Translations under genes and position numbers: made by a program
Part shown: in pieces, positions 625 to 38,530 of the stretch
Layout of the letters: each line of letters begins with the position of its first letter
How positions within the stretch are numbered: the stretch's first letter is position 1
Source of the DNA: an uncultured Candidatus Saccharibacteria bacterium
Lineage (GTDB): Bacteria > Patescibacteriota > Minisyncoccia > CAIUEV01
NCBI GenBank assembly: GCA_964602125.1
Contig: CAZRPR010000003.1
Location: forward strand, 1 to 38,753
Direction: 5' to 3'
Length of the DNA stretch: 38,753 bases
The notes under the pieces: model-generated
The model's input: the letters and a program-made list of their open reading frames with translations, nothing else
Databases searched by the model: none
What the model was told of the DNA's origin: nothing

Positions 625-658
625 GACTCTCTCCCAAAAGGAGGGAGTCGTTTTTTTT
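625..658 (+). terminator. Intrinsic terminator: 10-bp stem (gactctctcc / ggagggagtc, one G-U pair), loop caaaa, then g + T8
   Basis: Hairpin and T8 run read directly. The T-run overlaps the stop codon of the convergent MazF-like ORF. Confidence 0.7.
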
Positions 659-1049: not shown

Positions 1050-1204
1050 TCTCCATAAATTAATTTATTTTCTCATCACCCTAAACCCAAATAAAAAAAC
1101 TAAGAAATAAAATTATTAAATTAAAAATAGATTTTTATAATCGATGCGAAAAACATTGACTGGATTTGATTTTTCAGGTAGTCAGAATACTGGTTTTATT
1201 TTTT

Positions 1205-1783: not shown

Positions 1784-1834
1784 GGGTTGTTTTTAAGGAA
1801 TTATAAGTTGTTTCAATGCGCTCTTATGTAATCG

Positions 1835-3664
1835 CTACTTTCTTGCATTTTCATTGACTGAAGAGAAAGAAAGTCTGAGATAGTATTTTTTAATTTTTTC
1901 AGCCATCATTTTTTTTCTTTCCTCTAGGAATTCTTTGTAGTTATCTATGTCCATTTCAAAGATCGTCCTTGGAATGCAATTTTCTTCAAGGTTTCTGTAT
2001 AATTCTTGAGTATTTGTGATACTGCCATATTTCAATTCACCCCCATTACATTGACCCAGCACCTCGTTCATATACTCCCTTGGTGATTTTTTCCCAATCC
2101 GAATGTTAATTTCAGATTGAGCATAAACAAAATTAGAGATTTGGTTATAGTCCCCTCTTGAAGAAAATTTCCTTTTCAAGTATTCTTTTGGAAAAATATG
2201 ATGAATATCACCTCTAAGACTAATTAAATTTCCAACCGTGATATCTCTTGAAAGAAAACCTCTGTTGTTATCTTTAATTTGAGCCGCAAAGAAAACGCTT
2301 AAAAAAGGACTGGAAATAATAGATCTGTTTAAATTTCCAACTAGCCCAACGCTCCAAAAAGTTTCCGAAAGTTCAGCTGCCTCGATTGATTCTAAATATT
2401 CTTTGACTCCCAGTTCGGATATTTTTTTGATATCGAAATCAATTTGAGACTCGGGAGAGCCGGAATATCTTCCTGTTAAGATTGACATTACAAACCAACG
2501 CTGAACATATCTAGCAACCAAAGCCTCGTCCATTTTTTGGTCTCGTAACTTGAGATAAAGAATGTAGGCAAAATTAAGAGTGTTTTGAGAGCTAATCAAA
2601 TCTTGCTCAATAAATCCGGAGGATTTGATAATCATCACAAAGCGCTTAAAGTGAGTTTCATTAACAAAATCAAGAACACCTCGGCTTAGTCTCTGGAAAG
2701 AATCATCCATAATTTCCTGTTCAAAAGTCCGAGTTTCAAAATTTCTTCCGGACAGCAAACTCACCAAATCGCTCATCTTGCCTCTTTCAAATTCCTTAGT
2801 GAAACTCACCCGCAAAACATCGGAATAGTTAGGATCATATAAATCATCTTTTTCTTTTCTCAACCATCCGATTTTATTGTAATATTCGGTGTTAACGAAA
2901 CATTTATCATTTTCACTTATATTCTTATAGAATTTAGGTTCTTTGGCTAAATGACAAAAATAATCAATACACTTTCTTAAATTAACCCCGAAGTCATCTT
3001 CAACTTCGTAGGATGCAATTTTTGACATTGCAAAATCAGCTTGGCTCAAAACAACTCCTTCTGAGTTTATTCGGATAAATATCTCTGTTACAGTTTCAAT
3101 ATCTAAATTAGCGTTAAGCTCAATGAACCCAACCGGCTTATTATTAATATCAAGTAATTTTCCAATATTTGTTCCAACTAGATTCTGATCGATTTCTGGA
3201 TTTTTCTCACAATATTCTTTTACCGATCCGAACAATCCGTCTCCCCGGTTCATTAGTTCAGCAATATCCGGAATCCAAGAATGGTCTTTCGTGATTGCTG
3301 GGGTCAGGGTTGCAAATTCTTCTTTAACTGGGTGAAAGGATATTTTAACATTTTGCTCCTTATACTCTTTGTCAATAATTGACTCACCCAAAATAGCCGC
3401 TCTTAAAGCCGTTATTCTCTGTTGACCGTCGATTAGAACCATCTTGCCATTTGAAAGAGTTCCGTCTTTCAAACGCACATCCGGATTTTTCCAAGCGATA
3501 ATATATCCGACAGGATATCCTTGATAGAGAGAGTCTATTAAGTCTCTAATTTTTGTCGTGTCCCAAACAAAAGGACGTTGAATTTCCGGTATGGCAATAC
3601 TTCCCGTTTGAACCAAGGAAAGAATGTTGCTGATTAAATACTGATTTACGCTGTATTTTTGCAT
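1835..3664 (-). CDS. DUF262 + DUF1524 (GmrSD-like / BrxU-like) putative modification-dependent Type IV restriction nuclease
   Basis: N-terminal IPEIQRPFVWD and LIDGQQRITAL (DGQQR, ParB-like NTPase motif of DUF262). C-terminal GDIHHIFPKEYL (His-Me finger of DUF1524). Confidence 0.8.
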   Translation of the reverse strand: MQKYSVNQYLISNILSLVQTGSIAIPEIQRPFVWDTTKIRDLIDSLYQGYPVGYIIAWKNPDVRLKDGTLSNGKMVLIDGQQRITALRAAILGESIIDKEYKEQNVKISFHPVKEEFATLTPAITKDHSWIPDIAELMNRGDGLFGSVKEYCEKNPEIDQNLVGTNIGKLLDINNKPVGFIELNANLDIETVTEIFIRINSEGVVLSQADFAMSKIASYEVEDDFGVNLRKCIDYFCHLAKEPKFYKNISENDKCFVNTEYYNKIGWLRKEKDDLYDPNYSDVLRVSFTKEFERGKMSDLVSLLSGRNFETRTFEQEIMDDSFQRLSRGVLDFVNETHFKRFVMIIKSSGFIEQDLISSQNTLNFAYILYLKLRDQKMDEALVARYVQRWFVMSILTGRYSGSPESQIDFDIKKISELGVKEYLESIEAAELSETFWSVGLVGNLNRSIISSPFLSVFFAAQIKDNNRGFLSRDITVGNLISLRGDIHHIFPKEYLKRKFSSRGDYNQISNFVYAQSEINIRIGKKSPREYMNEVLGQCNGGELKYGSITNTQELYRNLEENCIPRTIFEMDIDNYKEFLEERKKMMAEKIKKYYLRLSFSSVNENARK

Positions 3665-3726
3665 GTTGATAAATAAATAAATAATTATTCTAATTTTCCA
3701 ATCATGGTTTTTTGTAATTTAAAAAA

Positions 3727-6681: not shown

Positions 6682-6682
6682 A

Positions 6683-8812
6683 TTATTTGGTTACTATAAA
6701 TGGTTTACTTTCATTTCCATGCTTGTCAATCGCAATGACCGCGATTTTTTTCTTGGCCGATTCGTTCAGTGTAAAAAATCCCTCAGCATTTATATCTTTA
6801 GCAAAAACGGTCTTATCCATGTCGAAGGGTTTACCCACTTCATGATTAACATCGACCAAAAGCATAGCCAGACCCTCCAGACCCGGAAAGCGATTGCCTT
6901 CTTTGTTTAAAATTTTGGTTTCAAATTTGGTGATTTTTAGTCCTGGCTCATCACGTAAGATTTCAATCTCCACGTCCTCGTTAAAATAAAAAGCAGTAGA
7001 GGTAATAAGTTCGTTGACTGCTCCTTGTGAAGCTGGTTGTTCATGAAGCTCCAAGTGACGCGAAACATCTTCGAGTACCTTGTATGGGAAAGTTAGGAAT
7101 TTGAAAATCACTTCTTGACCCCCAGGATTTTTGAGCCTGGTGTCACCAATGTTAGTGCAATGTTCTGGAACGATAATATGATATTCTCTATGCAAACGCC
7201 CAGCACCTTGAGTGATAATGCTTTGCAAATAATCTTCATCAATTTTTACATTCTTAAAATGATGTTCGTCCCAAACCGGAAACACCTCCACTGGCGCACC
7301 ATCTTTTTCGGCATATATATTCGTAAGTTTTGTTTTACTGGCTTTTCCTTCATCGCGAACCAACTGAAACAAGCCTAAGACGAAAGCAATATAAGCATTT
7401 TTATGCTCTGGTGTGCCAAGTGCCATCACATGAGAGAAATCATAAGCACCAGCAGAAATAACGGAAAATGGTTTTGGATCTTTACTATATGAATCACCTT
7501 TTTTTACAATAATTTTATCGGCATCATCTTTTTCATCCACTAAGGCTTTACTTTCGCCTATACGAAGCATACGACGTTGTTGCGTATATATCGCATGCTT
7601 TCCAAAATCACAAGAAATCCATCGTCTTCCAAGTTTTTCAGCAACAGCAGGCGCAGATCCAGATCCAGCAAAACAATCTAAAACTATATCACCTGGATTA
7701 GACGAAGCCAACACAACCCTATCTAGAAACGCCTCTGGTTTTTGAGTTGGATAAAAACAATTTTCAAGTGCGCCGCCCTGCACTGGCGAAATATCAACCC
7801 ATATATCCTGCAATGGCACCCCCCTACCCTCATCTAAATATTTTTTTCTTTGCGGGACAGTGCCTGGATTCGTTTGTATTATTTCCCCAGCATCAAGTAA
7901 TTCTTGCATTCTCTTTCTGGAATACATCCAGTATCTAGTAACGCCCATAACCTCATATCGTGGATTTCCATTTGCCGCACCTCCTGGTCCAGCCATTGTT
8001 ACGAGCCTATAAACTCTGCCATCATTATCTGTATATTTATAAAAATCTTTTATATATTTTTCAGAATACGGTGTATAAATGCTATTCAAAGTAAAATTTT
8101 CACTTTTTCTATACAAAAGTATCACGTCATGCAATCGTCCAAGGTGTTTAGCACCTTGCCCCGAATCACCGTGTGAAAAAGTGCGCTTCCAAATAATTTC
8201 ATTTACAAAATTTTCCTTACCAAAAATTTCATCAAGCGTTATTTTAATACCATGGACCATTTTTTGATCTAAATGAACATATATACTACCATCTTTATGC
8301 AATATTTCAGACAAAAGCAACAACCGTTCGCGTAATGTTTCTATAAATTCGGAAGTAGCAATTTTATCATTATAACTTCTCTCCCCATCCTTCCCACCAA
8401 AATCACTCTTGGTAGCAAACGGCGGATCAATATAAATTAATTTTACTTTCCCCTTCACCTTGCCTTTGATTAGTGGATCTTCATCACGATAACAAGTTTT
8501 CAAAAACTGCAAATTATCACCTTGCACAATCATATTCTGCCACTCACCTTCCTTGGTCTCGCCAAAACTTCTCACCACTTGCAGTGGCGCTGCTCCAATG
8601 CCTGCTCCCGCCTCAGCCAAAATTGCTGCCTTGCTCCTCTTACCCGCATATTCAAGCGTTGGAATTTTGGCACGATCTAGTGCCTTCACATCAAACTTTT
8701 CAGCTGTGCCAGGGAAAAGTTTGGTCAGAAAATCAGGCGATGGCTCAACCCCAGCGTTTATAGCTTCTAGTAATTTGATTTTGTCTTCGTCGGTGAGATT
8801 TATTTTTGGCAT
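6683..8812 (-). CDS. mod: Type III R-M Mod subunit, beta-class N6-adenine/N4-cytosine DNA methyltransferase
   Basis: Motif IV LIYIDPPF precedes motif I VLDCFAGSGSA (beta-class order). Size and position upstream of res are typical of a mod-res operon. Confidence 0.85.
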   Translation of the reverse strand: MPKINLTDEDKIKLLEAINAGVEPSPDFLTKLFPGTAEKFDVKALDRAKIPTLEYAGKRSKAAILAEAGAGIGAAPLQVVRSFGETKEGEWQNMIVQGDNLQFLKTCYRDEDPLIKGKVKGKVKLIYIDPPFATKSDFGGKDGERSYNDKIATSEFIETLRERLLLLSEILHKDGSIYVHLDQKMVHGIKITLDEIFGKENFVNEIIWKRTFSHGDSGQGAKHLGRLHDVILLYRKSENFTLNSIYTPYSEKYIKDFYKYTDNDGRVYRLVTMAGPGGAANGNPRYEVMGVTRYWMYSRKRMQELLDAGEIIQTNPGTVPQRKKYLDEGRGVPLQDIWVDISPVQGGALENCFYPTQKPEAFLDRVVLASSNPGDIVLDCFAGSGSAPAVAEKLGRRWISCDFGKHAIYTQQRRMLRIGESKALVDEKDDADKIIVKKGDSYSKDPKPFSVISAGAYDFSHVMALGTPEHKNAYIAFVLGLFQLVRDEGKASKTKLTNIYAEKDGAPVEVFPVWDEHHFKNVKIDEDYLQSIITQGAGRLHREYHIIVPEHCTNIGDTRLKNPGGQEVIFKFLTFPYKVLEDVSRHLELHEQPASQGAVNELITSTAFYFNEDVEIEILRDEPGLKITKFETKILNKEGNRFPGLEGLAMLLVDVNHEVGKPFDMDKTVFAKDINAEGFFTLNESAKKKIAVIAIDKHGNESKPFIVTK

Positions 8813-8823
8813 AGGATTTTTGA

Positions 8824-11800
8824 TTATTGTTCGAGATTAAATTTATTTGCAAGTAAACGATCCAGCACCGTCACTTGCGTATCCCCTGGTTGTTCTGGGC
8901 GCAAAGTGAATTTATTGATGCGCAAAAAACGATAACCATAGCTTTCAAGTTCTAGGGTGCGACCATTGTCGTAATCCGTGAATTCTCGTGACAACGCATG
9001 GCGTGAAACTTCAGATGGATCTTTGAAATGAAATTCAATGCCATCATATTCCAAAATCAAAGTTTGCTCCTTACCACCTTTGGACAAAACCAACAAAAAG
9101 TCCACACGATACTTGGGCATCTGAGCTGCAAACTCAGTGCGCAAATAATTGCCAATTGGAAACTGTGGTACTAGACGGATGTTGGCTTTATTATTTTTGA
9201 AAAATTCAGTGTTAAGCACCAATTGATATAGTTCCTTTTCCTTGGGTGAATCAAAGATTGATTCATCTGCAATAAAGAAATCATTTTTCTCCGCTTCCTC
9301 TAAAGTGTTACGATAATGTTTCAGGGCATTGCCTAGTTGTGTATTGCTAAAATTTTCAATGTCTTGGCTAAGCACAAACACCATCGTGTCTTTGGCACGA
9401 GAAAAACCAACATTGAGCCGTTGCATTTTAAGCGAACGGATATTGTCAGCCGTACCACCGATGACCGGATAAATTGATCCGAGATTAGCATTACTTATAG
9501 CCTTATTTTCCACAAAAGAATAATAAACAATATCTCTTTCCTCACCCTGCACGTCTCCTACGAACCATACTTCCAGCTTGTGGTCGCGTTTCAGTTGCGG
9601 TAAGTTTGTCCGTTCGTTCAACGTCTCCTCCAATCTTATCTGTTGTTCTCTGAATGAAGTAATGACTCCAATCGTACCCTTGAAACCACCTGCTATAATA
9701 TTTTGGATATCTGTAATAATAGCATCAATTTCATCTAAATTTAAGTTAGCGCTGGCGTTACCTAAAGTTTTCACTGTTAGAAATCGCAATGTTTCTCCAA
9801 TCGGCTTGGTACGAATACGATTCATAATAAGTTCTTGCTGAGCAACTTTGTAGAATTTTTCATTAGAGTAGCTGATAATCTCCGGGAAACTACGAAAATG
9901 CTCCTTGAGTGATGTGGTGTAGTTGGCAATTGCTTTAGCAAAAGACAATGTCGAGGTTCTAATATTGAAAGTTTTGAGCCAAAGTACTGCTCCCGGATTA
10001 TCCTGCGGACGAATCAAGGCTTCGCTAACTAAATCATCAGTGTTAATATCACGAGCTACTTCGTCTACTAGCTCTTTTTTAGCCGAATCAGAGACTGATA
10101 CCTTGTAATCATCAGCATAAGCGTTTACAATTTCCGTAAAATAACTAGCCGAATATTTGGTAGAAACATTAATTGCACTAACTGCGCCATATTGATATTC
10201 GTCCCCAAAAATCACTACTTGTTTAGCGCGCAGAATTAATGAAATAGAATCAGCAATGGAAACTTGTGAAGCTTCGTCAATAATTAAAACATCAATCAAG
10301 TCTTCTTGCATGGGAAAATGTTTTGACAGGGTCGATGGCTCAGCAATAATAACCGAAATACCCTCAAGCAAAGTCTTGGTTTGGTCAGCTGTGAAACGCT
10401 TACCACCCTCAAAAGAAATTTTGAGTTGTTGCATAACACCTGAGTATTGATTGAGTTTTTTGAGACGAAGGTCGTTTTTGTGCTCAAGCTCTTTCTGTTT
10501 TAGACGTGAATACTCCCTAGTATCAGTTGTGAAGTCGTCGATCAAGGTGCTCGATTGAGATAGTCTGGCGTGTAGAAGAATCCATTTAAAAACCAATTTT
10601 TCTGTTTCACTACCATACTTTAGTCTACCAATAGTTGATATTTGATCCTGAATAACTCCAATGACCTCTAGAATAGTTCCGTAATGATCGAACAATTTAT
10701 TGATTGATTCAAGGGTCTCTATATTAAATTTATCAAGGGCTGTCTGATATTTTTGCACCTCGGTGAACATTTCCGAAATAGATAAATTAGCATTGCCTAC
10801 TAATTTTTGATATTCTTCAACCCAAACTTTGTATTTACGCAAATTAATTACTGCTTCAGCACGCTCTAAACCAGCCGACAAATCATTAACTGTTGCAAAA
10901 TTAAAATCTATTCCAGCAATTTTACTTATCTCGGTTAGTGGCTCAGTGTATTGTAAAGAAAGAGTTTTTCTAATAATCTCTTCTAGCTGCTCTTTGCTGC
11001 TTGCCTTTCCTGTTATTTTTGCTATGAAACCAGCGGACGCGTCTCTAACGGAAAGTTCTTTGACAACAGCGTCCTTCTTAAACAGGTTTGCCATTTCATG
11101 AATTAGATTAGAAAGATCTTCTGGAACGCTAGCGAATGAAGTTTCTACTGAGAGGATTTCTGCTGGTGTTGTATTTACATGCTCACAGGCTTCAATAAAT
11201 TTATGTAGTTCATGCTTGCGAGTCACAATAAATTCATATTCCGCTAGAGAAGTGGAAATAAAAATATTTTCAGTAGCAAGATCGACAAATTTTTCCAAAA
11301 TTTCCATATTTATTTCAGTTTCTAGCCTCAAAGTTGTGTCCAGCAAGCTCCCTATTTTGTCCGCCTTTTTAAGTTTTTCATTAATTTGTGAAAATTCCAC
11401 TTGATCGATCAATCTTTGTGATTCATTTTTCGCCGAGCTTAAACGAGATTGCAAAATACTTTCTAGATGTTTAGCAATTTTATTGCTGTCTTCGGTAATG
11501 GCTTTGTCGTTGTATTCCAGTGTTCTTTCAGTTGCACCGTTAACAACTGCTGAGGTTAAAGTGTTGCTAAAATTATTAGCAGACCCAGTTTCAATGTCCA
11601 TGCGCACTATTGACGGCTTAGCTTGAGGATGAAGTGCTTTAAACTTGTCTGTCATCATGCGATCAATTACATCAAGCGCCTCTTTTTTGTGAGATGTAAC
11701 TACCACGGTCTTGCCATCTTCATTAGCTTTGTACGCTAGTGCCGCAATTGTATGGGACTTACCAGTCCCGGGAGGACCATCAACTACAATTATTTTATTC

Positions 11801-13083
11801 TTGGTATTCTCTAGGGCAAGCAGGATTCTTTTCTGTGAATTATTAAGGGGGATCGGACCATCTGACATATAGCGTTTTGCGCTATTCGATGGATAACTAT
11901 CGTTAAATTTACGAATTACATCGTCTGTATAATTCGGTACTGTTCCAGAAATATATCCATCTATAAATGATCCGAATTGACTATGACCACCTGCGTCAAT
12001 ATTGGTCATTATCTCTGAATAATCCAATAATTTTTTGTCTTCATTTGCTACAATTTGAAAACCAATACGACCACTGATGGCTGGAAAATTTTCTTCATCA
12101 TGAATTATCTCTTTGAATTGTGGTTCTAAAATAAAATTTTGATTGATTCCATATTGAGCTTGCAAAAAAACTTCTATCGCTCCAAGAGGTGCACTTGCCT
12201 GCTCAATTGAAGATGCACGTGGAGTAGTCAAAACTCGATCAAATTTGAAAAAATTGATAGCAGGCACATTCAACAATAGCAAATTTCTTGGAAAAGAAAT
12301 TGTAATCTCAGTATTGGACAAGCGCATGTCCACTTCAATAAAATATAGCGGAAAAGAATCATCGCCACGAGAAATTGTGTGAAAGAAAATATAAAAAGTC
12401 CCTAGCGTCGAAAAAGCTTGATAGTTATGTAAATTTAAAAATAAATCATACAGGACAATGTCTTTGATTTCTTTTTTAAAATATTCTGTAACTTTTTTTA
12501 CATACTCATCTGGCTCAACTTGATTTTTTGCTAACTTCTTTAAAGCATCTAAGTGTGTCTTAAGATAAGTATTTAAACCAAAACTTGATTGAGGAAAACT
12601 GGTTGCTCCACTTTCTTCTTTAAATTGCAATAATAATTTTTCTTGCAAATCCAAAATAGCTTCCTCTAGTGTTTTACGTATCTTTATGTTGTATAATCTG
12701 ATTGCTTCATCCCAAGCAATTTTCGAAACATCCAATTCCACATTATTTGCTGATCGAGTCTCGATGCCTAAACGTTCTAGTTCATCTTTTAATAATTTTT
12801 CCAAGCACTCCTTGTCAAGATTACTGCTTATTGCTTTTGTTATTGCTAAGATTATATCTTGATTAGCTAGTGATAATGTGTATTGACCAGGTTTAATTTT
12901 GATATCAACTGATTTGCCAACTCTAATTGATTCCAGTAATAATTCCTGAAATTCCGGGTATAATGGCAGATCTAAGGTCAGCTCGTTATTGGTCCAACGA
13001 TAACTAACCATTCGCTTAAAGTTAAAGCGAGTCTCAGTAAAAGTAGCAAAATAATTGAGAATAGTTTTCGAGAGATTGCTCAT
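8824..13083 (-). CDS. Large Upf1-like SF1 helicase (AAA_11/AAA_12 type) with DUF4011-like N-terminus and C-terminal DUF559/Vsr-like endonuclease domain (HheA-like)
   Basis: Walker A VVDGPPGTGKSHT (about aa 436), VLIIDEASQ (D936), VIFGDEYQ, VQGEERDIV, LNVGFSRAKD. C-terminal YRVDFLL...ILEYDGIEFH...GYRFLRI matches the DUF559 pattern. Confidence 0.8.
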   Translation of the reverse strand: MSNLSKTILNYFATFTETRFNFKRMVSYRWTNNELTLDLPLYPEFQELLLESIRVGKSVDIKIKPGQYTLSLANQDIILAITKAISSNLDKECLEKLLKDELERLGIETRSANNVELDVSKIAWDEAIRLYNIKIRKTLEEAILDLQEKLLLQFKEESGATSFPQSSFGLNTYLKTHLDALKKLAKNQVEPDEYVKKVTEYFKKEIKDIVLYDLFLNLHNYQAFSTLGTFYIFFHTISRGDDSFPLYFIEVDMRLSNTEITISFPRNLLLLNVPAINFFKFDRVLTTPRASSIEQASAPLGAIEVFLQAQYGINQNFILEPQFKEIIHDEENFPAISGRIGFQIVANEDKKLLDYSEIMTNIDAGGHSQFGSFIDGYISGTVPNYTDDVIRKFNDSYPSNSAKRYMSDGPIPLNNSQKRILLALENTKNKIIVVDGPPGTGKSHTIAALAYKANEDGKTVVVTSHKKEALDVIDRMMTDKFKALHPQAKPSIVRMDIETGSANNFSNTLTSAVVNGATERTLEYNDKAITEDSNKIAKHLESILQSRLSSAKNESQRLIDQVEFSQINEKLKKADKIGSLLDTTLRLETEINMEILEKFVDLATENIFISTSLAEYEFIVTRKHELHKFIEACEHVNTTPAEILSVETSFASVPEDLSNLIHEMANLFKKDAVVKELSVRDASAGFIAKITGKASSKEQLEEIIRKTLSLQYTEPLTEISKIAGIDFNFATVNDLSAGLERAEAVINLRKYKVWVEEYQKLVGNANLSISEMFTEVQKYQTALDKFNIETLESINKLFDHYGTILEVIGVIQDQISTIGRLKYGSETEKLVFKWILLHARLSQSSTLIDDFTTDTREYSRLKQKELEHKNDLRLKKLNQYSGVMQQLKISFEGGKRFTADQTKTLLEGISVIIAEPSTLSKHFPMQEDLIDVLIIDEASQVSIADSISLILRAKQVVIFGDEYQYGAVSAINVSTKYSASYFTEIVNAYADDYKVSVSDSAKKELVDEVARDINTDDLVSEALIRPQDNPGAVLWLKTFNIRTSTLSFAKAIANYTTSLKEHFRSFPEIISYSNEKFYKVAQQELIMNRIRTKPIGETLRFLTVKTLGNASANLNLDEIDAIITDIQNIIAGGFKGTIGVITSFREQQIRLEETLNERTNLPQLKRDHKLEVWFVGDVQGEERDIVYYSFVENKAISNANLGSIYPVIGGTADNIRSLKMQRLNVGFSRAKDTMVFVLSQDIENFSNTQLGNALKHYRNTLEEAEKNDFFIADESIFDSPKEKELYQLVLNTEFFKNNKANIRLVPQFPIGNYLRTEFAAQMPKYRVDFLLVLSKGGKEQTLILEYDGIEFHFKDPSEVSRHALSREFTDYDNGRTLELESYGYRFLRINKFTLRPEQPGDTQVTVLDRLLANKFNLEQ

Positions 13084-13171
13084 AATATTTTTGTTCTTTT
13101 TTATTAAATATTTTTCCTTAATATCCTACACCCAACATTCAATAACATCCAAAAAACACTGTATTGAAAAG

Positions 13172-13318
13172 CTATCTAGCTTTTTTCACAAACTGAATTT
13201 CATAAACCGGAATCGCTTCCGGATTTTCATGGATGTATTTTTGTAAGTAGTCTTCACTCTCAAAAGAAGATTTAATCAGTTTTTGCGTTCCGTCTTTACT
13301 GGAAATAATAATACTCAT
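13172..13318 (-). pseudogene. 48-codon ORF (MSIIISSKDGTQKLIKSSFESEDYLQKYIHENPEAIPVYEIQFVKKAR), possibly the N-terminal remnant of a NucS/DUF91/Shedu-style PD-(D/E)XK nuclease
   Basis: Translated by hand. The pattern F.SE..LQ.YI.ENPE.I resembles N-termini of that nuclease class from memory. It sits 43 nt downstream of repeat copy 1. Confidence 0.25.
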
Positions 13319-13360
13319 TTAGTCGAATTATTAAATTATTTTCATTCCGGTGCCTACATC

Positions 13361-13392
13361 CTCACCTTACCCCCCAAAATTAATTAAATCAA
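13361..13392 (-). repeat. Direct repeat copy 1 (32 nt): ctcaccttaccccccaaaattaattaaatcaa. The minus strand reads TTGATT-17-TAAGGT.
   Basis: Matches 16181-16211 except for one extra C. Overlaps the stop codon of the 195-aa ORF. Confidence 0.9.
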
Positions 13393-13976
13393 AACTTAAT
13401 TTCCCCTCCCATCAAGCCTTGGTGCTTGCTTTTAATTCTTTTTTGGAAGTTTTCCAACAAAACCAAATATTCATTCACTTGCTCGACGGTGTAAGCTTCG
13501 TATTCCTTGTGTTCCAGGCTGGTGATGTGAACGAAGTTGCGGACTTTTCGGAGGTTGTGGAGGGCGTTTTTCATGGAGCCGTCGAGGAGGCCGTGCCGGA
13601 AGCCAGAGTCGATTAAGTAAATAAAATTCTCGTTTTCTTCAAAGCTGACGTTGCTTTTTTTGCTAGATAGTTGGAAGAGGAGGTCGTAGAGAGCGCTTTC
13701 CATGACGCCGGCGATGGTGATGAGCATATTTTTGCAGTGGAGAGATTCGATGGTGAGATACATTTGGTAGTCGTTGTAGAGATGGGCCATGTATTCCAAG
13801 TATTGGAGGTGGTAGGCGATGTTCTCTCGGGCGGGGAGATATTCGATGAAGGACCACTCTGCTTTGTAGTGATTGGCGCTTTGGGGGTGGCGGTCTTTGG
13901 GCAGGAGGATTTTCTTGTCGGAGTTGTCCTGCTTTTTTTCCTCGTCAAAGCTGACTTTTTTCTTGAGTAATTCCAT
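13389..13976 (-). CDS. Hypothetical 195-aa protein; tentative HEPN-like motif LRKVRNFVH
   Basis: Its ATG directly abuts the upstream gene's stop (TAAATG). R-x6-H / RN..H near the C-terminal third is only loosely HEPN-like. Confidence 0.6.
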   Translation of the reverse strand: MELLKKKVSFDEEKKQDNSDKKILLPKDRHPQSANHYKAEWSFIEYLPARENIAYHLQYLEYMAHLYNDYQMYLTIESLHCKNMLITIAGVMESALYDLLFQLSSKKSNVSFEENENFIYLIDSGFRHGLLDGSMKNALHNLRKVRNFVHITSLEHKEYEAYTVEQVNEYLVLLENFQKRIKSKHQGLMGGEIKF

Positions 13977-15236
13977 TTATTTTTTCTTTATTGAAATAGA
14001 TTTTTCCTCGACGGGCGGGGAGATTTTGAGAATTTTTTTGGTCAGCTGTTTTTCCAGGAGGTCGTCGTCAAGGAGTTTTTTGATTTTGCCGAAAGAAAGC
14101 TCGGAAAGCTCTTTCCAGTGTTTGGTGTCTTGGAGTAGTTTTTCCAGTTTTTGATACGCCTCCGGTTCAATGGATTTTCGGGGAAAGGCAAAATCTTTAT
14201 TCTTTTTGATGCAAACGAGGTGACTGCCACCGTCGAGGGTTTCTAGTTTGTTGGCTTTGGCGTATTGAAAGATTACATCCTCGATACGCTCAAGCTCCTG
14301 CTCAACAATCCAGGCTTTTTCTCTGGCCTTTCGGTTGATTTCCGATCTCTTGAGGACAAACGCAATATATTTTTTAGCCAGTTGAACCCCGCTGTCTTTG
14401 AGATACTTATTGGCCGGCAGACTGACAACTTTGAAAAGATGTTTCTTTTTGGGACAATGCTCCCAAAAACCGCACCAATCACATTTAGTTTCTTTGGCGG
14501 GAAAATCGTTTTTGCGTTCGGCTAAATTAATTTCGGCAATCAACTGGAGGATTTCTTCCTTTAACTCTGCTAATTGCTTATCCGTTCGCTCCGAGAAGAC
14601 ATCCTCCCCAAAGGCGACGTAATGCCAAACCAAACTCACTTTTTTGGCCTCGTGAAATTTTTGCTTAACGGCCATGGAATAAAGAGCCAGTTGACGATCT
14701 TTGTCGGCGTATTCTTGATCCATAATGGCTCCTGTTTTGTAGTCATGAACGGAATAGTGGCCTTTTTTGTCGCGGGCTAAGCGATCAATAAAGCCGGTTA
14801 TTTTGTACTTATTCCAATTGAGAGAAATTTCTTTTTCCACTCCCAGTGTTTGGTCTTGATTAAAAGGATAGAATTTTCGATAGTAATTGGCAATGCATTT
14901 TTTACCAAGTTCGAAATAGTGTTCTTTGCTAAATTCTTTGTTGTTGATAGCGATGGTATCCTCCCAATCTTTTTTCCAGTTCTGCTCGTAAAATTCCAAG
15001 AGTTTTTCCAAAGTGGTTATTTTGGTTTTTATAATCCCTTTATACAGAAATTCCATGGTGTCATGGACCAAGCCCCCCATGAAAGCTTCAATGGTCGTGC
15101 TTTCTTCGGCTGGCTTTAATCGGTCAAGATATTTATATTTATACTGAAGCGGACACCTTTCATAAACTTGCAGCTTGGAATGAGAAAATTGTTTCATTAA
15201 GTTATATAGATCTATTAAATTATTCCACCCTTTCAT
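13977..15236 (-). CDS. PD-(D/E)XK nuclease, RecB/AddB/Cas4-like with a four-Cys cluster, plus a C-terminal extension of about 140 aa of unknown function
   Basis: YERCPLQYKYKY (first Cys), GFIDRL...SVHDYKTG (D...D-x-K), QLALY, CDWCGFWEHC (C-x2-C-x5-C). I prefer the ATG at 15236, preceded by GGAGGT, over the TTG at 15263 used in the ORF track. Confidence 0.8.
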   Translation of the reverse strand: MKGWNNLIDLYNLMKQFSHSKLQVYERCPLQYKYKYLDRLKPAEESTTIEAFMGGLVHDTMEFLYKGIIKTKITTLEKLLEFYEQNWKKDWEDTIAINNKEFSKEHYFELGKKCIANYYRKFYPFNQDQTLGVEKEISLNWNKYKITGFIDRLARDKKGHYSVHDYKTGAIMDQEYADKDRQLALYSMAVKQKFHEAKKVSLVWHYVAFGEDVFSERTDKQLAELKEEILQLIAEINLAERKNDFPAKETKCDWCGFWEHCPKKKHLFKVVSLPANKYLKDSGVQLAKKYIAFVLKRSEINRKAREKAWIVEQELERIEDVIFQYAKANKLETLDGGSHLVCIKKNKDFAFPRKSIEPEAYQKLEKLLQDTKHWKELSELSFGKIKKLLDDDLLEKQLTKKILKISPPVEEKSISIKKK

Positions 15237-15253
15237 CTTACCTCCAAACAACG

Positions 15254-15279
15254 TAAGGAACAATAATTATTGTTCCTTA
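15254..15279. repeat. Perfect 26-nt palindrome taaggaacaataattattgttcctta between the Bro-N gene stop and the nuclease gene start
   Basis: The sequence equals its own reverse complement. Located in the 57-nt intercistronic gap. Confidence 0.9.
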
Positions 15280-15293
15280 TCAAGGGGAAAAAG

Positions 15294-16145
15294 CTATTCT
15301 TTGCTTTTATTTTTTTTCAACATCAAAACTTGCCGAGCGTTGAGTGGACTCACTACTTGCTTACCGGTTTCAAGCTCCAACTCCATACGAGCTCCTCTAG
15401 CTATTTTCCCGCCACGCTTTGCAACCTCTTCGTGCTCCGGAAATGATTTGGGATTAGTAATTTCAGAGATTTCTTTAGTGGATAATTCGGCCAACATATT
15501 CAAAACCAACTCTTTATTGGTCATATTGTCACGCAAATTTTCTTTTTTTAAACCTTTAAATTTTTTATATTCTTTAGCGGTTTTATCCGCCCATGTTTTA
15601 TAAATAATATCTGTAAGGGTAGCGAATTCCAATCCTTCCCTGAGTCCATGCTTTCTCCATTCATCAGTGAGTTCTTTACGAATTTCGATACTTTTTAATC
15701 TTTGATTTATCCAATTATCTGAATATCCCAAATTTTTATAGTCCCACATTGCTTGCTTTATGGAAAGTTCCGGATCTTGTATTTGGTCAAGTCTTTTTTT
15801 AGCAATTTCCGACAGCCACACTTTGAAAGGTTCGGCTTTTTTAGAAGGAATTGACTGAATGAGGCGAAAAACCTGCTTTGTATCTACCACATCTGTCAAG
15901 CGCATCTTTCCGTCCGGAGCTTTTATTTTCAACTGGTTAGTGCTACTAACCAGTTCGCTTCCTTCGGTTTTGAGTTTATTTTTGAGCCACTTCCAATAAT
16001 TTCTAACTTTTTGATAGTCATTTTGATCGGTAAGTACGGTAATAATGTCCAGAACTGAGAACCACCATTTTTCCATTTCTTCATCCCAAACAGTCCTAAC
16101 TTTCTGTTTTTCGAATAGCTGAATCGAATTTTTCATCTTATTCAT
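15294..16145 (-). CDS. Bro-N domain protein of the DinD (DNA-damage-inducible protein D)-like family
   Basis: LFEKQKVRTVWDEEMEKWWFSVLDIITVLT, IQSIPSKKAEPFKVWL, IQDPELS, ELTDEW, KKFKGLKKENLRDNMT and GGKIARGARMELE all match the widespread Bro-N/DinD-like family as I recall it. Confidence 0.75.
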   Translation of the reverse strand: MNKMKNSIQLFEKQKVRTVWDEEMEKWWFSVLDIITVLTDQNDYQKVRNYWKWLKNKLKTEGSELVSSTNQLKIKAPDGKMRLTDVVDTKQVFRLIQSIPSKKAEPFKVWLSEIAKKRLDQIQDPELSIKQAMWDYKNLGYSDNWINQRLKSIEIRKELTDEWRKHGLREGLEFATLTDIIYKTWADKTAKEYKKFKGLKKENLRDNMTNKELVLNMLAELSTKEISEITNPKSFPEHEEVAKRGGKIARGARMELELETGKQVVSPLNARQVLMLKKNKSKE

Positions 16146-16180
16146 TTAAACATTAAAAGTTTACCATCGTGATACTTATT

Positions 16181-16211
16181 CTCACCTTACCCCCAAAATT
16201 AATTAAATCAA
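16181..16211 (-). repeat. Direct repeat copy 2 (31 nt): ctcaccttacccccaaaattaattaaatcaa. The minus strand reads TTGATT-16-TAAGGT.
   Basis: Located 36 nt upstream of the Bro-N/DinD-like start codon. Confidence 0.9.
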
Positions 16212-16299
16212 GGCGGACGATTTGTTGGGATGATAAATATACTGTATGACTTTTTCACAGGGATAAAAAGCGATTTTGTTGATTAAGGAGGAAAACAAA

Positions 16300-16473
16300 A
16301 TGCGAGAGTTGATTCTTTGGAACATGCTGTTTGGCAGTGGATGGATCAAAAAGAGAAGAACCGGCTTTTGGGGCGTTTATGATCGATTAGCCGTTTCAGT
16401 AGAAGTGATCGTCGGCTTTATCATCGCCAACATAGTCATTTTTTTCATTGAACTTCACGTCATTAATCGCTAA
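16300..16473 (+). CDS. 57-aa small membrane protein (MRELILWNMLFGSGW...VIVGFIIANIVIFFI...)
   Basis: ATG preceded by AAGGAGG with a 7-nt spacer. One C-terminal TM helix. Followed by a strong terminator. It is the only plus-strand gene in the island. Confidence 0.5.
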   Translation: MRELILWNMLFGSGWIKKRRTGFWGVYDRLAVSVEVIVGFIIANIVIFFIELHVINR

Positions 16474-16491
16474 AATGTTATTGTTTCCCCT

Positions 16492-16520
16492 AAAGGCAGA
16501 GAAGATTCTCTGCCTTTTTT
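16492..16520 (+). terminator. Intrinsic terminator (aaaggcagagaa / ttctctgccttt arms, then a T-run)
   Basis: 12-nt perfect inverted arms at 16492-16503 and 16506-16517; T-run to 16520. Confidence 0.75.
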
Positions 16521-16561
16521 AAGTGCTAGCTTAAGGTTGTTATACGGTAAACAAAAAAGAT

Positions 16562-16590
16562 TTGACGGTACTGAAAAAAATCAGTACAAA
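16562..16590 (+). promoter_or_regulatory. Candidate sigma70-type promoter TTGACG-17 nt-TACAAA, pointing into the 3' end of the NYN gene
   Basis: Hexamers and 17-nt spacing read directly. Function not demonstrated. Confidence 0.3.
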
Positions 16591-16597
16591 TTAAGTA

Positions 16598-17161
16598 TCA
16601 AGACGAAAGGGGATCCGAAAGGTGTTGGTGCCTAAGGAGCCCCTTTTTTATTTGCCATACTTTTATTTTTTTCTTGATATCTTTACTGTCCAGAGAATCA
16701 AAAAATTCCGAACCTAGTTCTTTATAGAGAGAGGAGGCGAATTTTTTGTTAGGGAAAAGGATCTTGCCGAATTTATGTTCTTCAATGAGAAAATCAACGA
16801 GCATTTTATAGTCTCCGTCTCCTGAAACCAAGATAATCTTGCCGAAGTCTTCTCTTTGGTAGATTTTTTTCATTATCTGAAAGACAATATCCGAATCGAC
16901 ATTCCCCTTCTTCTTGCCGGTCATGGCGCTGTTATGCTCCCGAAACATTAAAATAAAGCCCGCTTCCTGAACGCTGGTATATATTTCCTGATGAATTTCA
17001 TCCATGCAGCCTAAAAAGTAGTAGGCGGTTTCGACATGATACCTGTCTTTCAAAAAAACTCGAAATTTTTTCAAATCAATTCTCCATGGCCTTTTCAGTT
17101 TAGTCGTTCCCATGTGGAGATTCTGACCGTCAACAAAGGCATAATTGTTCTGATTTTCCAT
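16598..17161 (-). CDS. NYN domain (LabA/DUF88-like, PIN-related) putative RNase
   Basis: N-terminal YAFVDGQNLHMG and central ILVSGDGDY are the conserved acidic motifs of NYN/LabA proteins. Confidence 0.8.
   Translation of the reverse strand: MENQNNYAFVDGQNLHMGTTKLKRPWRIDLKKFRVFLKDRYHVETAYYFLGCMDEIHQEIYTSVQEAGFILMFREHNSAMTGKKKGNVDSDIVFQIMKKIYQREDFGKIILVSGDGDYKMLVDFLIEEHKFGKILFPNKKFASSLYKELGSEFFDSLDSKDIKKKIKVWQIKKGLLRHQHLSDPLSS
16606..16649 (+). terminator. Extended hairpin (ggggatcc...ggagcccc with inner aggtg/gtgcct pairing) followed by T6, lying inside the last ~17 codons of the NYN ORF
   Basis: Stem with one mismatch plus T-run 16644-16649 on the plus strand. On the minus strand it is followed by tttcgtctt. 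Confidence 0.45.
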
Positions 17162-17270
17162 AATGTTAGTTTTTTTATTGTCTTTACTTTTAGTGTAGGA
17201 CTAAAGATCGATTCAATCAATTGGTTTCTTTTTGCAAAACTTAAAATACTAAGTTATATATAGAGAGTAA

Positions 17271-17337
17271 GTTTTGGGCTCGCCTGCCTACCATCCCTAC
17301 CGGGAGGTAAACCGGCAGGCAGGTAGCTTAGTTGGTA
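17271..17337 (+). pseudogene. Partial duplicate of the tRNA-Ala 5' end (5-nt leader + nt 1-21), split after nt 7 by a 41-nt GC-rich palindromic insert (17283-17323)
   Basis: gttttgggctcg + [cctgcctacc...ggcaggcagg] + tagcttagttggta compared with gttttgggctcgtagcttagttggta at 17346-17371. Confidence 0.75.
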
Positions 17338-17350
17338 ATTTAAAAGTTTT

Positions 17351-17423
17351 GGGCTCGTAGCTTAGTTGGTAGAGCGCCTCCATGGCATGGAGGAGGTCAG
17401 GGGTTCGAGTCCCCTCGAGTCCA
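17351..17423 (+). tRNA. tRNA-Ala (anticodon GGC), no encoded CCA
   Basis: Cloverleaf folded by hand: acceptor GGGCTCG/CGAGTCC with G3:U70, anticodon loop AUGGCAU, T-loop TTCGAGT, discriminator A. Confidence 0.92.
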
Positions 17424-17498
17424 CAAATTAAAAACACTCTTAAATTAAAAAAGCCGTAAAAACATCTTATATTCTGTTCTTACGGCTAAATGAATGAT

Positions 17499-36804: not shown

Positions 36805-38475
<1,671 letters not shown>

Positions 38476-38488
38476 AAAACAAAATTTT

Positions 38489-38530
38489 CCTCCCCTCAGA
38501 TGAGGGGAGGCCTGCCTACCGGTAGGCAGG
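38489..38530. repeat. Two abutting GC-rich palindromes: cctcccctca-ga-tgaggggagg and cctgcctaccggtaggcagg
   Basis: Arms verified as exact reverse complements. The second shares its arms with the insert at 17283-17323. Confidence 0.9.

What the first reader, a model, noticed from the sequence alone, without database searches (positions are those of the whole stretch)
17271..17423. tRNA-Ala 5' end duplicated at the island edge and split by a 41-nt GC-rich palindromic insert
The 5-nt leader plus tRNA nt 1-21 (gttttgggctcgtagcttagttggta) occurs twice. One copy is intact at 17346-17371 as part of tRNA-Ala(GGC). The other lies 75 nt upstream and is interrupted precisely between tRNA positions 7 and 8 by cctgcctaccatccctaccgggaggtaaaccggcaggcagg. 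The defence island lies immediately to the left of this duplication. Partial tRNA duplications normally mark integration junctions of genomic islands, but here the 5' rather than the 3' part is duplicated. The duplicate itself has been hit by a small palindromic element. This may record two successive events: island insertion or rearrangement at the tRNA, then invasion by a REP/MITE-like element.
Basis: seen in the sequence. Interest (0 to 1): 0.6.

Follow-up and report, generated by a model that had tools for sequence, protein, structure and literature searches.

The report
Decayed mobile-element scar at tRNA-Ala
The split extra copy of the tRNA-Ala 5' end is real, but it looks like a leftover of small elements that repeatedly invade tRNA genes in this group of tiny-genome bacteria, not the edge of the neighbouring defence island.

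Summary
A 27-nt leader plus tRNA 1-21 repeat occurs twice. The upstream copy is split between tRNA positions 7 and 8 by a 41-nt GC-rich palindrome (H41, my label). Contigs from two further samples show the same structure.

The island reading is not supported. In this genome 4 of 19 palindromes of this family lie inside truncated tRNA copies beside intact tRNAs (Pro, Ile, Val, Ala). Same-genus genomes give clean empty and filled alleles for Pro and Ile with no island involved. The orthologous tRNA-Ala(GGC) also has a 5' remnant split by a GC hairpin in two relatives that lack this island. In one of them an 81-aa Slx1-like GIY-YIG nuclease gene lies between the remnant and the intact tRNA.

H41 is the 20-nt palindrome CCTGCCTRCCGGYAGGCAGG (H20, my label) with 21 nt nested at its centre. 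Exact H20 occurs in 131 of 301 genomes sampled from the class. In 14 tRNA remnants it sits at exactly tRNA position 21/22.

Best reading (0.55): a nuclease-less relic of a tRNA-targeting cassette that carried its own tRNA 5' part, later hit by H41. I found no published description in the library searched.

The parts
17229..17248 (+). Conserved promoter-like block TTTTTGCAAAACTTAAAATA upstream of the first, broken copy
   Evidence: The same block lies upstream of tRNA-Ala(GGC) copy 1 in G001:C46 and G002:C115. The strict sigma-70 scan did not call it, so its promoter role is inferred.
17269..17282 (+). Remnant left arm: leader AAGTTTT plus tRNA positions 1-7
   Evidence: Identical to 17344-17357.
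17283..17323 (.). H41: 41-nt GC-rich palindromic insert. It is the 20-nt H20 palindrome with 21 nt nested at its centre.
   Evidence: Sequence. Hairpin fold. The exact 41-mer is unique in G000 at up to 3 mismatches. Relatives are at G000:C1:58375-58436 (83%) and at G001 C17, C42, C18, C61 (93-97%). No Rfam family matches it.
17324..17337 (+). Remnant right arm: tRNA positions 8-21. It ends exactly at the D-loop/D-stem boundary 21/22.
   Evidence: Identical to 17358-17371. In G001 the remnant carries its own palindrome at exactly 21/22.
17338..17343 (+). Filler ATTTAA that is not part of the repeat. Together with the leader it reads ATTTAAAAGTTTT.
   Evidence: The bases upstream of copy 1 are AGAGAGT, so this is not a plain tandem duplication. 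G003 has TTTAAAAGTT before its intact copy. G001 has the nuclease ORF's 3' end TTCTTAAAAAAAATT in that place, 9 of 15 alike by my own count. This is weak evidence.
17344..17350 (+). Leader AAGTTTT of the intact copy
17351..17424 (+). Intact tRNA-Ala(GGC), the only GGC copy in the assembly
   Evidence: ARAGORN. Rfam RF00005 at 67 bits.
38511..38530 (.). A plain H20 copy (CCTGCCTACCGGTAGGCAGG) elsewhere in the window, next to another GC hairpin and just after the stop of ORF 36826-38475
   Evidence: -7.1 kcal/mol, z = -3.95.
16598..17161 (-). NYN-domain gene, the last gene of the defence block on the left (context only)
   Evidence: Pfam PF01936, E = 9.6e-14.

Best explanation
This is a nuclease-less relic of a small mobile cassette that once inserted into the tRNA-Ala(GGC) transcription unit.

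In this lineage, cassettes built around an 80-95-aa Slx1-like (UPF0213) GIY-YIG nuclease gene land inside tRNA genes. They bring their own copy of the tRNA 5' part, so an intact tRNA is re-formed downstream. The original 5' end stays upstream, next to the native promoter, as a dead remnant.

That remnant nearly always carries a GC-rich palindrome. When the palindrome is H20, it sits exactly between tRNA positions 21 and 22.

At this locus the nuclease gene has been deleted, leaving only ATTTAA plus the leader. The remnant ends at position 21. A long H20 derivative, H41, which is mobile within the genus, has inserted at 7/8.

The intact tRNA would then be transcribed from the old promoter through the remnant and freed by RNase P.

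Shown: the anatomy, the recurrence, the empty and filled alleles, and the nuclease gene at the ortholog.

Inferred: that this locus once held the nuclease gene, the order of events, how the palindromes move, and the transcription.
For: 1. Recurrence in this genome. Truncated tRNA copies split by the same palindrome family lie beside intact tRNA-Pro(TGG), Ile(GAT), Val(CAC) and Ala(GGC). That is 4 of 19 compact palindromes in about 0.34% of the genome, binomial P = 5e-7.

2. Presence and absence at conserved sites.
- tRNA-Pro: G001 is empty. G000 and G002 carry the same 89-nt insertion, [1-21]-H20-[22-45]-24-nt spacer.
- tRNA-Ile: G001, G002 and G003 are empty. G000 is filled. G005 is filled with a different GC-rich insert.

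3. The ortholog.
- G001 tRNA-Ala(GGC) has the same promoter block, then [1-21]-32-nt palindrome-[22-32], then an 81-aa GIY-YIG ORF whose stop lies inside the intact tRNA.
- G003 has [1-15]-GC-rich insert-TTTAAAAGTT-intact tRNA.

4. Nuclease association. Of 12 short GIY-YIG frames in 5 genomes, 8 lie within about 130 nt of a tRNA or tRNA remnant. Five show remnant-hairpin-ORF-intact tRNA. In 4 the ORF ends inside the tRNA 5' end.

5. Wider sample. The junction pattern found 22 places in 16 of 301 genomes. Fourteen are tRNA remnants with H20 at exactly 21/22, across tRNAs Pro, Ile, Val, Trp, Asp, Thr, Lys and Asn and two remnants I did not type. Three of these, in three families, have a GIY-YIG ORF between remnant and intact tRNA.

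6. The nuclease looks active. Y5, Y15, G17, R25, H29 and E62 are invariant in 14 sequences. The nearest solved structures are UPF0213 1zg2 (E = 7e-18) and 1ywl, then SLX1 (1e-8). I-TevI is far (4e-4).
Against: - No small GIY-YIG gene is found anywhere in G000, which is 87% complete. That this locus ever held one rests on the G001 ortholog and on a weak 9-of-15 likeness in an AT-rich spacer.
- H41 sits at 7/8, not 21/22.
- The remnant, at 21 nt, is the shortest seen.
- G001's palindrome belongs to a different sequence family.
- Related genomes are not independent, and the junction search was defined by the feature it counts.
- Most H20 copies (15 of 19 here) are not in tRNA remnants, so the palindrome has a life of its own.
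- No mobilising enzyme has been shown.
- No RNA data exist: 0 of the 23 listed runs are on record as RNA.
Confidence: 0.55

Rival explanations
1. A local short duplication of the promoter-proximal 27 nt, by replication slippage or break repair with a few filler bases and with no nuclease cassette involved. A REP-like palindrome then inserted into the dispensable copy.
For: - No GIY-YIG gene is present in G000.
- The arms are 100% identical, which suggests a recent event.
- Several remnant loci have only short non-coding spacers: Pro and Ile here, and G192, G008 and G078.
- The palindrome family is mostly outside tRNAs.
Against: - It is not a plain tandem duplication, because the filler ATTTAA has no local source.
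- It does not explain why the same tRNA in G001 holds a nuclease ORF in that place.
- It does not explain why remnants are so regularly hit by palindromes.
- It does not explain why H20 is always at 21/22, in 14 of 14 tRNA cases.
Confidence: 0.25
2. Palindrome first. H41 inserted into the working tRNA gene and inactivated it. The cell was rescued by a partial duplication or by gene conversion that rebuilt an intact copy downstream.
For: - Every clear 5' remnant examined carries a GC hairpin.
- In G002 a full-length but degenerate tRNA-Val(CAC) with H20 at 21/22 lies beside an intact tRNA-Val(CAC).
Against: - tRNA-Ala(GGC) is single-copy here, so the intermediate would lack it.
- G001 has the remnant without an insert at 7/8, so at this tRNA the duplication predates or is independent of H41.
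- This route needs a rare rescue each time.
Confidence: 0.1
3. An integration junction of the defence island at tRNA-Ala, that is an att-type repeat.
For: A defence gene block abuts the tRNA promoter. Synteny with relatives breaks on both sides of the tRNA.
Against: - The 5' part of the tRNA is repeated, and only 75 nt away.
- No second junction exists in the assembly.
- No integrase domain is found in the block.
- The block lies on the 5' side of the tRNA.
- The same remnants occur without islands.
- The contig starts inside the block, so its far end cannot be seen.
Confidence: 0.03
4. The remnant plus hairpin is a functional leader. It could be a structured 5' element that controls processing or expression of the tRNA, or the hairpin could be a general terminator or stabiliser motif kept by selection.
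For: - H20 is letter-perfect in 131 of 301 genomes of the class.
- Some copies lie just after stop codons, for example window 38511-38530.
- The region folds better than shuffles (z = -3.4).
Against: - No Rfam match.
- No terminator-like T run follows the hairpin.
- G005 lacks any 5' remnant at this tRNA, and G001 lacks this insert.
- Insert position and family differ from locus to locus.
Confidence: 0.05

Closest known systems
Free-standing GIY-YIG homing endonuclease genes next to tRNA genes (phage T4 SegB)
   Same: A small GIY-YIG gene sits among tRNA genes. SegB recognises a conserved tRNA stem-loop motif in the DNA and spreads together with flanking tRNA genes (abstract of PMC2330249). 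The presence/absence alleles seen here fit homing.
   Different: - The proteins here are 80-95-aa bare Slx1-like (UPF0213) domains, not the I-TevI/Seg type with a DNA-binding domain.
- The host is a small-genome bacterium, not a phage.
- The target tRNA is partly duplicated and the remnant carries a palindrome.
- No cleavage has been shown.
- The locus under review has no nuclease gene.
Palindromic GC clusters of yeast mitochondria and hairpin-forming repeats of other AT-rich organelle genomes
   Same: Short GC-rich palindromes scattered in an AT-rich genome. They are mobile, pass between species, and merge to form new elements (abstract and introduction of PMC4478555; search listing only for PMC2800124). 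H40 is H20 nested inside H20, and H41 is H20 with a nested 21-mer.
   Different: - This is a bacterial genome.
- One 20-mer is conserved letter for letter across a class.
- It has a fixed site in tRNA remnants (21/22).
- There is no target-site duplication here.
REP elements and their RAYT transposases (REPINs)
   Same: Short extragenic palindromes in many copies, often after genes. This description of REP elements is recalled and comes from no call.
   Different: - No Y1 transposase was found in G000.
- In G001, G003 and G031, seven of the nine Y1_Tnp matches examined have a palindrome of their own beside the gene, five on both sides. G031:436205 shows none clearly. G001:C61 has only the right two-thirds of an H41 downstream.
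- None of these palindromes is H20.
Partial tRNA duplications at genomic-island or prophage att sites
   Same: A direct repeat of part of a tRNA gene next to horizontally acquired genes.
   Different: - Classic att repeats are the 3' part of the tRNA, lie at the far end of the element and come with an integrase (recalled knowledge).
- Here the repeat is the 5' part, 75 nt away, with no integrase.
Homing-endonuclease ORFs in fungal mitochondria that duplicate part of the host gene
   Same: A mobile nuclease ORF enters a gene and carries a replacement for the displaced part. The gene stays intact and a pseudo-fragment remains. This is recalled knowledge. Only search listings were seen.
   Different: - There it is usually the 3' end of a protein gene.
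- Here it is the 5' end of a tRNA, so RNase P could take the place of splicing.
- One protein-gene example of the same layout does exist in G001:C15.
Bacterial Slx1-family stand-alone GIY-YIG proteins (UPF0213; PDB 1zg2, 1ywl)
   Same: They are the best sequence match and the minimal form of the domain. PMC1564403 (passages) describes them as mostly vertically inherited, predicted repair proteins. It notes one fusion to a TrmH-like tRNA methyltransferase.
   Different: Here they are multi-copy (5 in G001, 4 in G031), patchy, and embedded in tRNA gene duplications. That is the behaviour of a selfish element.

Membership tests
Island/prophage att junction at a tRNA | The repeat is the 3' part of the tRNA and recurs at the distal end of the element | tested here: not met
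   The repeat is the leader plus positions 1-21, 75 nt upstream. The 13-mer arm and the 27-mer occur nowhere else in the 63 contigs. The 14-mer arm and tRNA 1-21 recur only in tRNA-Ala(TGC) on C32. The assembly is 87% complete and the contig starts inside the block.
Island/prophage att junction at a tRNA | An integrase or recombinase gene beside the tRNA | tested here: not met
   Ten ORFs of at least 110 aa between 657 and 17161 were scanned against Pfam. None has a recombinase domain, and two have no hit.
Island/prophage att junction at a tRNA | An empty site in relatives with conserved flanks | tested here: inconclusive
   Relatives share no flank with the window on either side of the tRNA.
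REP/RAYT (REPIN) | Short imperfect palindromes, multi-copy, mostly extragenic | tested here: met
   Nineteen compact copies in G000. Exact H20 in 131 of 301 genomes, with reversed-pattern control 0.
REP/RAYT (REPIN) | A cognate Y1 (RAYT) transposase gene flanked by the same palindromes | tested here: not met
   PF01797 gave 0 matches in G000 and 9 matches in G001, G003 and G031. None is flanked by H20. G001:C61 has only a partial H41 on one side.
MITE | Terminal inverted repeats plus a target-site duplication | tested here: not met
   The whole element is one palindrome. The tRNA sequence is continuous across the insert at Ala, Pro and Ile, so there is no duplication.
Free-standing GIY-YIG homing element | A nuclease ORF with intact catalytic residues at the locus | tested here: not met
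   None at this locus or in G000. It is present at the G001 ortholog. The invariant Y, Y, R, H and E are in alignment A1.
Free-standing GIY-YIG homing element | Presence/absence polymorphism at a conserved site | tested here: met
   Pro: G001 empty, G000 and G002 filled. Ile: G001, G002 and G003 empty, G000 and G005 filled. Ala: G005 has no 5' remnant, while G000, G001 and G003 have one.
Free-standing GIY-YIG homing element | Site-specific cleavage of the empty allele and biased inheritance | not testable with these tools
   This needs biochemistry or crosses.
tRNA intron (group I or bulge-helix-bulge type) | An insert within a complete tRNA gene whose two exons join into a full tRNA | tested here: not met
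   The split copy stops at position 21 with no 22-76. At 41 nt the insert is too short for a ribozyme, and no Rfam intron matches.
Bacterial Slx1-like UPF0213 (the relatives' nuclease) | Sequence membership in the stand-alone GIY-YIG family | tested here: met
   The A1 profile against the PDB gave 1zg2 at E = 7e-18, 1ywl at 7.5e-15 and SLX1 at 1.3e-8. Pfam PF01541 is above its cut-off. NCBIfam gave only TIGR01453 below its cut-off.

The most novel reading that the evidence does not exclude
A class-wide selfish system in small-genome bacteria, not found in the literature searched.

Bare Slx1-like GIY-YIG nucleases, acting on DNA structure rather than on a long sequence, cut tRNA genes at loop-to-stem boundaries. 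These are the D-loop at 21/22 and the anticodon loop near 37/38.

The nuclease gene enters together with a replacement tRNA 5' half. RNase P therefore does the job that splicing does for intron-borne nucleases.

The universal 20-nt palindrome H20 is either deposited at the cut or forms the element's own left end. It then keeps the remnant from recombining the element out or from being cut again.

The tRNA-Ala locus under review would be a late, nuclease-less stage of that life cycle.
Probability: 0.3. Interest if true: 0.8.

Novelty: new variant of a known kind. Interest (0 to 1): 0.62.

Why it matters
For annotation: split tRNA 5' fragments of this type should not be read as island borders in these genomes. 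They can also break assemblies. G002's contigs end inside this tRNA, and G001's contigs break inside a tRNA-Ser cassette.

For biology, three points would follow if the cassette reading holds.
- It gives the bacterial Slx1-like UPF0213 proteins a concrete, testable role. PMC1564403 treats them as predicted repair proteins.
- It shows a way for a nuclease gene to live inside a tRNA transcription unit without an intron.
- It points to a 20-nt palindrome, conserved letter for letter in 131 of 301 sampled genomes, whose mobiliser and function are unknown.

tRNA genes would then be a main arena of mobile-element turnover and tRNA gene replacement in these reduced genomes.

Tried and rejected
- Naming the lineage through the search for related loci with the ArgRS gene found nothing. 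'Small-genome, CPR-like' is therefore my inference from genome sizes of 0.4-1.9 Mb and 39% GC.
- Rfam at gathering and at E up to 1 gave only the tRNA plus chance hits.
- The sigma-70 and terminator scan found nothing at the remnant.
- The RAYT hypothesis for the palindrome was rejected.
- Synteny could not define the island's insertion point. No flank is shared with G001, G002, G003 or G005, and the contig begins inside the block.
- Run X5, from another study, has no contig over 17009-17350. This shows nothing either way.
- No RNA runs were listed, so transcription is untested.
- Only contigs, not raw reads, could be laid, so rare empty alleles cannot be excluded.
- Literature: the four spellings of H20 gave 0 papers. 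Parcubacteria + tRNA + GIY-YIG gave 0. Searches with Patescibacteria or Candidate Phyla Radiation returned nothing relevant. The UPF0213/YhbQ/YazA search returned noise.
- Supplements were not seen.
- I did not test whether H20 copy number tracks the nuclease genes across the class, because the per-genome tables could not be passed to a script.
- A pure tandem-duplication model was rejected because the 6-nt filler has no local source.

Full report
WHAT IS THERE. Labels H20, H40 and H41 are mine. The window holds tRNA-Ala(GGC) at 17351-17424 (ARAGORN; Rfam 67 bits). Upstream lies a second copy of its leader and first 21 nucleotides:
- AAGTTTTGGGCTCG at 17269-17282.
- A 41-nt insert at 17283-17323.
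- TAGCTTAGTTGGTA at 17324-17337.
- Six filler bases ATTTAA.
- The same 28 nt, unbroken, at 17344-17371.

The arms are identical to the intact copy. The insert lies exactly between tRNA positions 7 and 8, and there is no target-site duplication. The insert folds as a DNA hairpin on either strand.

Contigs from two further samples of the same study reproduce the structure. X2 has 906 nt with 0 differences and X3 has 270 nt with 1 difference. A contig of X1 spans the whole stretch, but X1 may be the source sample. No alternative joints were seen.

THE SETTING. The genome (G000) has 910,123 bases in 63 contigs, is 87% complete, has 39.4% GC and has 37 tRNA genes. To the left of the tRNA lies a block of defence-type genes: MazF, GmrSD, a type III Res helicase and methylase, a 1419-aa SF1 helicase, PD-(D/E)XK, Bro-N and NYN. 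To the right lie housekeeping genes: a DNA polymerase III delta-like protein, a PMT-family glycosyltransferase and a phosphoglucose isomerase. The contig begins inside the block, so its far end is unseen.

THE INSERT IS A MEMBER OF A REPEAT FAMILY.
- The exact 41-mer is unique in G000. Diverged copies exist at G000:C1:58375-58436 (83%) and at four or five places in the same-genus genome G001 (93-97%).
- Read on the minus strand it is CCTGCCTGCCGG-TTTACCTCCCGGTAGGGATGG-TAGGCAGG. That is the 20-nt palindrome CCTGCCTRCCGGYAGGCAGG (H20) with 21 nt nested at its centre.
- G000 has 22 CCTGCC...GGCAGG pairs within 90 nt. I read 19 of them as compact palindromes of 16-41 nt, and 12 are exact H20. One lies in this window at 38511-38530.
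- The 40-nt insert at tRNA-Ile is H20 nested inside H20.
- Exact H20 occurs in 131 of 301 genomes drawn from the class (103 of 221 genera), with up to 29 copies per genome. The reversed pattern occurs in none.
- The long form with the GGTTTACC module was found only in G000 and G001 among 14 genomes of the order. A related 39-mer occurs in G031, a genome of another family.

THE DUPLICATION IS NOT SPECIAL TO THIS tRNA OR TO THE ISLAND. A k-mer scan around all 37 tRNAs, followed by inspection, found these cases:
- tRNA-Pro(TGG): [1-21]-H20-[22-45], a 24-nt spacer, then the intact gene.
- tRNA-Ile(GAT): leader plus [1-21]-H40-[22-38], a spacer, the leader again, then the intact gene.
- tRNA-Val(CAC): an intact gene followed by [14-21]-H20-[22-76] of a second, diverged Val(CAC).
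- tRNA-Asn: the leader plus the first six bases repeated on either side of a run of N.
- tRNA-Gln: two 175-nt tandem units, each ending in the tRNA's 3' end.

So 4 of 19 palindromes lie in tRNA remnants that make up about 0.34% of the genome (binomial P = 5e-7).

Same-genus genomes give clean allele pairs:
- For Pro, G001 is empty. G000 and G002 share the same 89-nt insertion with 3 differences in the spacer.
- For Ile, G001, G002 and G003 are empty. G000 is filled. G005 is filled with a different GC-rich insert.

No island accompanies either locus.

THE ORTHOLOGOUS tRNA-Ala(GGC).
- G001 has the same conserved upstream block (TTTTTGCAAAACTT.AAATA). Then come [1-21], a 32-nt palindrome of another sequence, [22-32], and an 81-aa GIY-YIG ORF whose last codons and stop lie inside the intact tRNA. 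The intact tRNA follows, and after it a 3' remnant split in its T loop by two more hairpins.
- G003 has [1-15], a 54-nt GC-rich insert, TTTAAAAGTT, then the intact tRNA.
- G005 has no 5' remnant.
- G002's contigs break inside the tRNA, so it is unresolved.
- The contigs of G001, G002, G003 and G005 that carry this tRNA (2-34 kb) share nothing else with the 38.7-kb window (tblastx, E below 1e-8).

The remnant is therefore a property of the tRNA locus in this family, not of the defence block.

THE NUCLEASE CONNECTION.
- PF01541 finds only one 412-aa frame in G000. It finds 12 short frames in G001, G002, G003, G005 and G031, besides five long ones.
- Eight of the 12 lie within about 130 nt of a tRNA or a tRNA remnant.
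- Five show the full layout of remnant split by a GC hairpin, ORF, then intact tRNA. These are G001 Ala and Ser(GCT), and G031 Asn, Ser(GGA) and Val.
- In four of them the ORF ends inside the tRNA 5' end.
- In several cases the remnant differs in sequence from the intact tRNA (G031 Ser(GGA), G192, G078). The intact gene or its 5' half therefore came from elsewhere.
- A search for a D-loop end (GGTTA, TGGTA or near variants) abutting the first half of H20 found 22 places in 16 of 301 genomes, with reversed control 0.
- I inspected all 22. Fourteen are tRNA remnants with H20 exactly between positions 21 and 22, in tRNAs Pro, Ile, Val, Trp, Asp, Thr, Lys and Asn and in two I did not type. Eight are not tRNA-related, which is about what chance flanks would give.
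- Three of the 14 (G051, G154, G194), each in a different family, have a GIY-YIG ORF between remnant and intact tRNA.
- The 14 proteins keep Y5, Y15, G17, R25, H29 and E62 invariant.
- They match UPF0213 structures 1zg2 and 1ywl best, then SLX1, with I-TevI far behind.
- Passages of PMC1564403 describe this bacterial Slx1 group as minimal stand-alone domains of predicted repair function. They place the homing enzymes in the other (UvrC) lineage.

HOW IT MOST LIKELY WORKS.
- Shown: tRNA genes of this lineage are repeatedly entered by short cassettes that leave the native 5' end, next to the native upstream block, as a dead remnant. An intact tRNA is rebuilt downstream. Many cassettes carry a Slx1-like GIY-YIG gene. 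The remnant nearly always bears a GC-rich palindrome, and H20 sits at a fixed position.
- Inferred: the nuclease drives entry, in a homing-like way. The intact tRNA is transcribed through the remnant and released by RNase P. Nuclease-less loci such as Pro, Ile and Ala in G000 are decayed stages.
- For this locus I infer a G001-like ancestor. A deletion running from 21/22, where G001's palindrome begins, to the last dozen bases of the ORF would give the present remnant and filler. H41, which is absent from G001's remnant, came later.
- The likeness of the filler to the ORF's 3' end is weak (9 of 15 in AT-rich sequence, my own count).
- Why the palindrome sits in the remnant is open. It may mark the cut site, form the element's left end, split the direct repeat so that the element is not recombined out, or simply survive only in dispensable tRNA-like DNA. 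The fixed 21/22 site argues against pure chance survival.

WHAT IT IS NOT.
- Not an att junction: wrong end of the tRNA, no distal copy, no integrase.
- Not a tRNA intron: the split copy stops at position 21.
- Not a known RNA family.
- Not a REP/RAYT pair. No Y1 transposase is found in G000. Of the nine Y1_Tnp matches in relatives, seven have a palindrome of their own beside the gene, one shows none clearly, and G001:C61 has only a partial H41 downstream. None of these is H20.

KNOWN RELATIVES AND NOVELTY. The nearest known things are:
- T4 SegB, a GIY-YIG homing enzyme that recognises a tRNA stem-loop motif (abstract).
- The mobile, merging GC clusters of yeast mitochondria (abstract and introduction).
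- Nuclease ORFs that duplicate part of a host gene in fungal mitochondria (recalled; search listings only).

Full-text searches returned no paper for the four H20 spellings or for Parcubacteria + tRNA + GIY-YIG. Searches with Patescibacteria or Candidate Phyla Radiation returned nothing relevant. The library omits most subscription journals, and I saw no supplements.

I rate the locus itself as an ordinary relic. I rate the pattern it belongs to as a new variant of known kinds.

CAVEATS.
- Related genomes are not independent.
- The junction search selects for what it counts.
- All genomes are draft assemblies of uncultured organisms.
- The lineage name is not established. 'CPR-like' is my inference from genome size.
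- No expression or cleavage data exist.

Noticed in passing
L074/L080 (G005:C6, about 2700-2830): A tRNA-Arg(TCG) gene is split in its anticodon loop by a cassette. The cassette holds 21 nt, a second complete tRNA-Arg(TCG) and 10 nt, and the two short flanks can pair (TCCCG/CGGGA). G041:C4 (L090) shows the same idea. There a tRNA with H20 at 21/22 holds a complete tRNA-Phe(GAA) in its anticodon loop, and the old 3' half follows.
   Followed up: partly
L052 (G001:C15:2258-2473): A small GIY-YIG ORF lies between a 5' fragment of a protein-coding gene and the intact gene. The fragment is split by a GC hairpin about 24 nt before its end. This is the same layout as at tRNAs, so the system is not confined to tRNA genes.
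   Followed up: no
L045 (G031:C1:643410-643616): A GIY-YIG ORF is enclosed by a 20-22-nt inverted repeat. It is inserted at the start codon of an aminoacyl-tRNA-synthetase-like gene, with ATG on both sides. It looks like a hairpin element with a nuclease gene in its loop.
   Followed up: no
G000:C2:41711-42150 (L060): tRNA-Gln(CTG) is followed by two tandem 175-nt units. Each ends in the last 25 nt of the tRNA plus its trailer. These are 3' remnants with no H20.
   Followed up: no
G000:C1:70285-70460 (L061): A run of about 150 N starts right after position 6 of a repeated leader plus tRNA-Asn 5' end. It may be an assembly gap or withheld stretch that hides another hairpin insert.
   Followed up: no
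window 38489-38530: Two adjacent GC hairpins, CCTCCCCTCAGATGAGGGGAGG and an H20 copy, lie 12 nt after the stop of ORF 36826-38475. The same pair recurs at G000:C2:27659 and at other places, like a compound REP cluster.
   Followed up: partly
G000 Pro and Ile, G002 Pro and Val#2, G003 Trp; window 17283-17323: Some H20 copies are asymmetric at the R/Y positions. In tRNA remnants the tRNA-sense strand of these copies always reads CCTGCCTGCC..GGTAGGCAGG, which gives a G-T/G-U pair rather than an A-C mismatch. There are 4 independent loci. The H41 of this window lies the other way round.
   Followed up: no
L104-L112 (G031, G003, G001): Nine Y1_Tnp (RAYT-like) matches were examined. Seven have a palindrome of their own beside the gene, five of them on both sides. 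G031 alone has six such genes. Classical REP/RAYT-like pairs therefore coexist with the H20 family.
   Followed up: partly
window 657-17161: A defence-type gene block: MazF-like toxin, GmrSD, type III restriction Res and Mod, a 1419-aa SF1 helicase, a PD-(D/E)XK nuclease, Bro-N and NYN. It has no recombinase domain. The contig starts inside it.
   Followed up: partly
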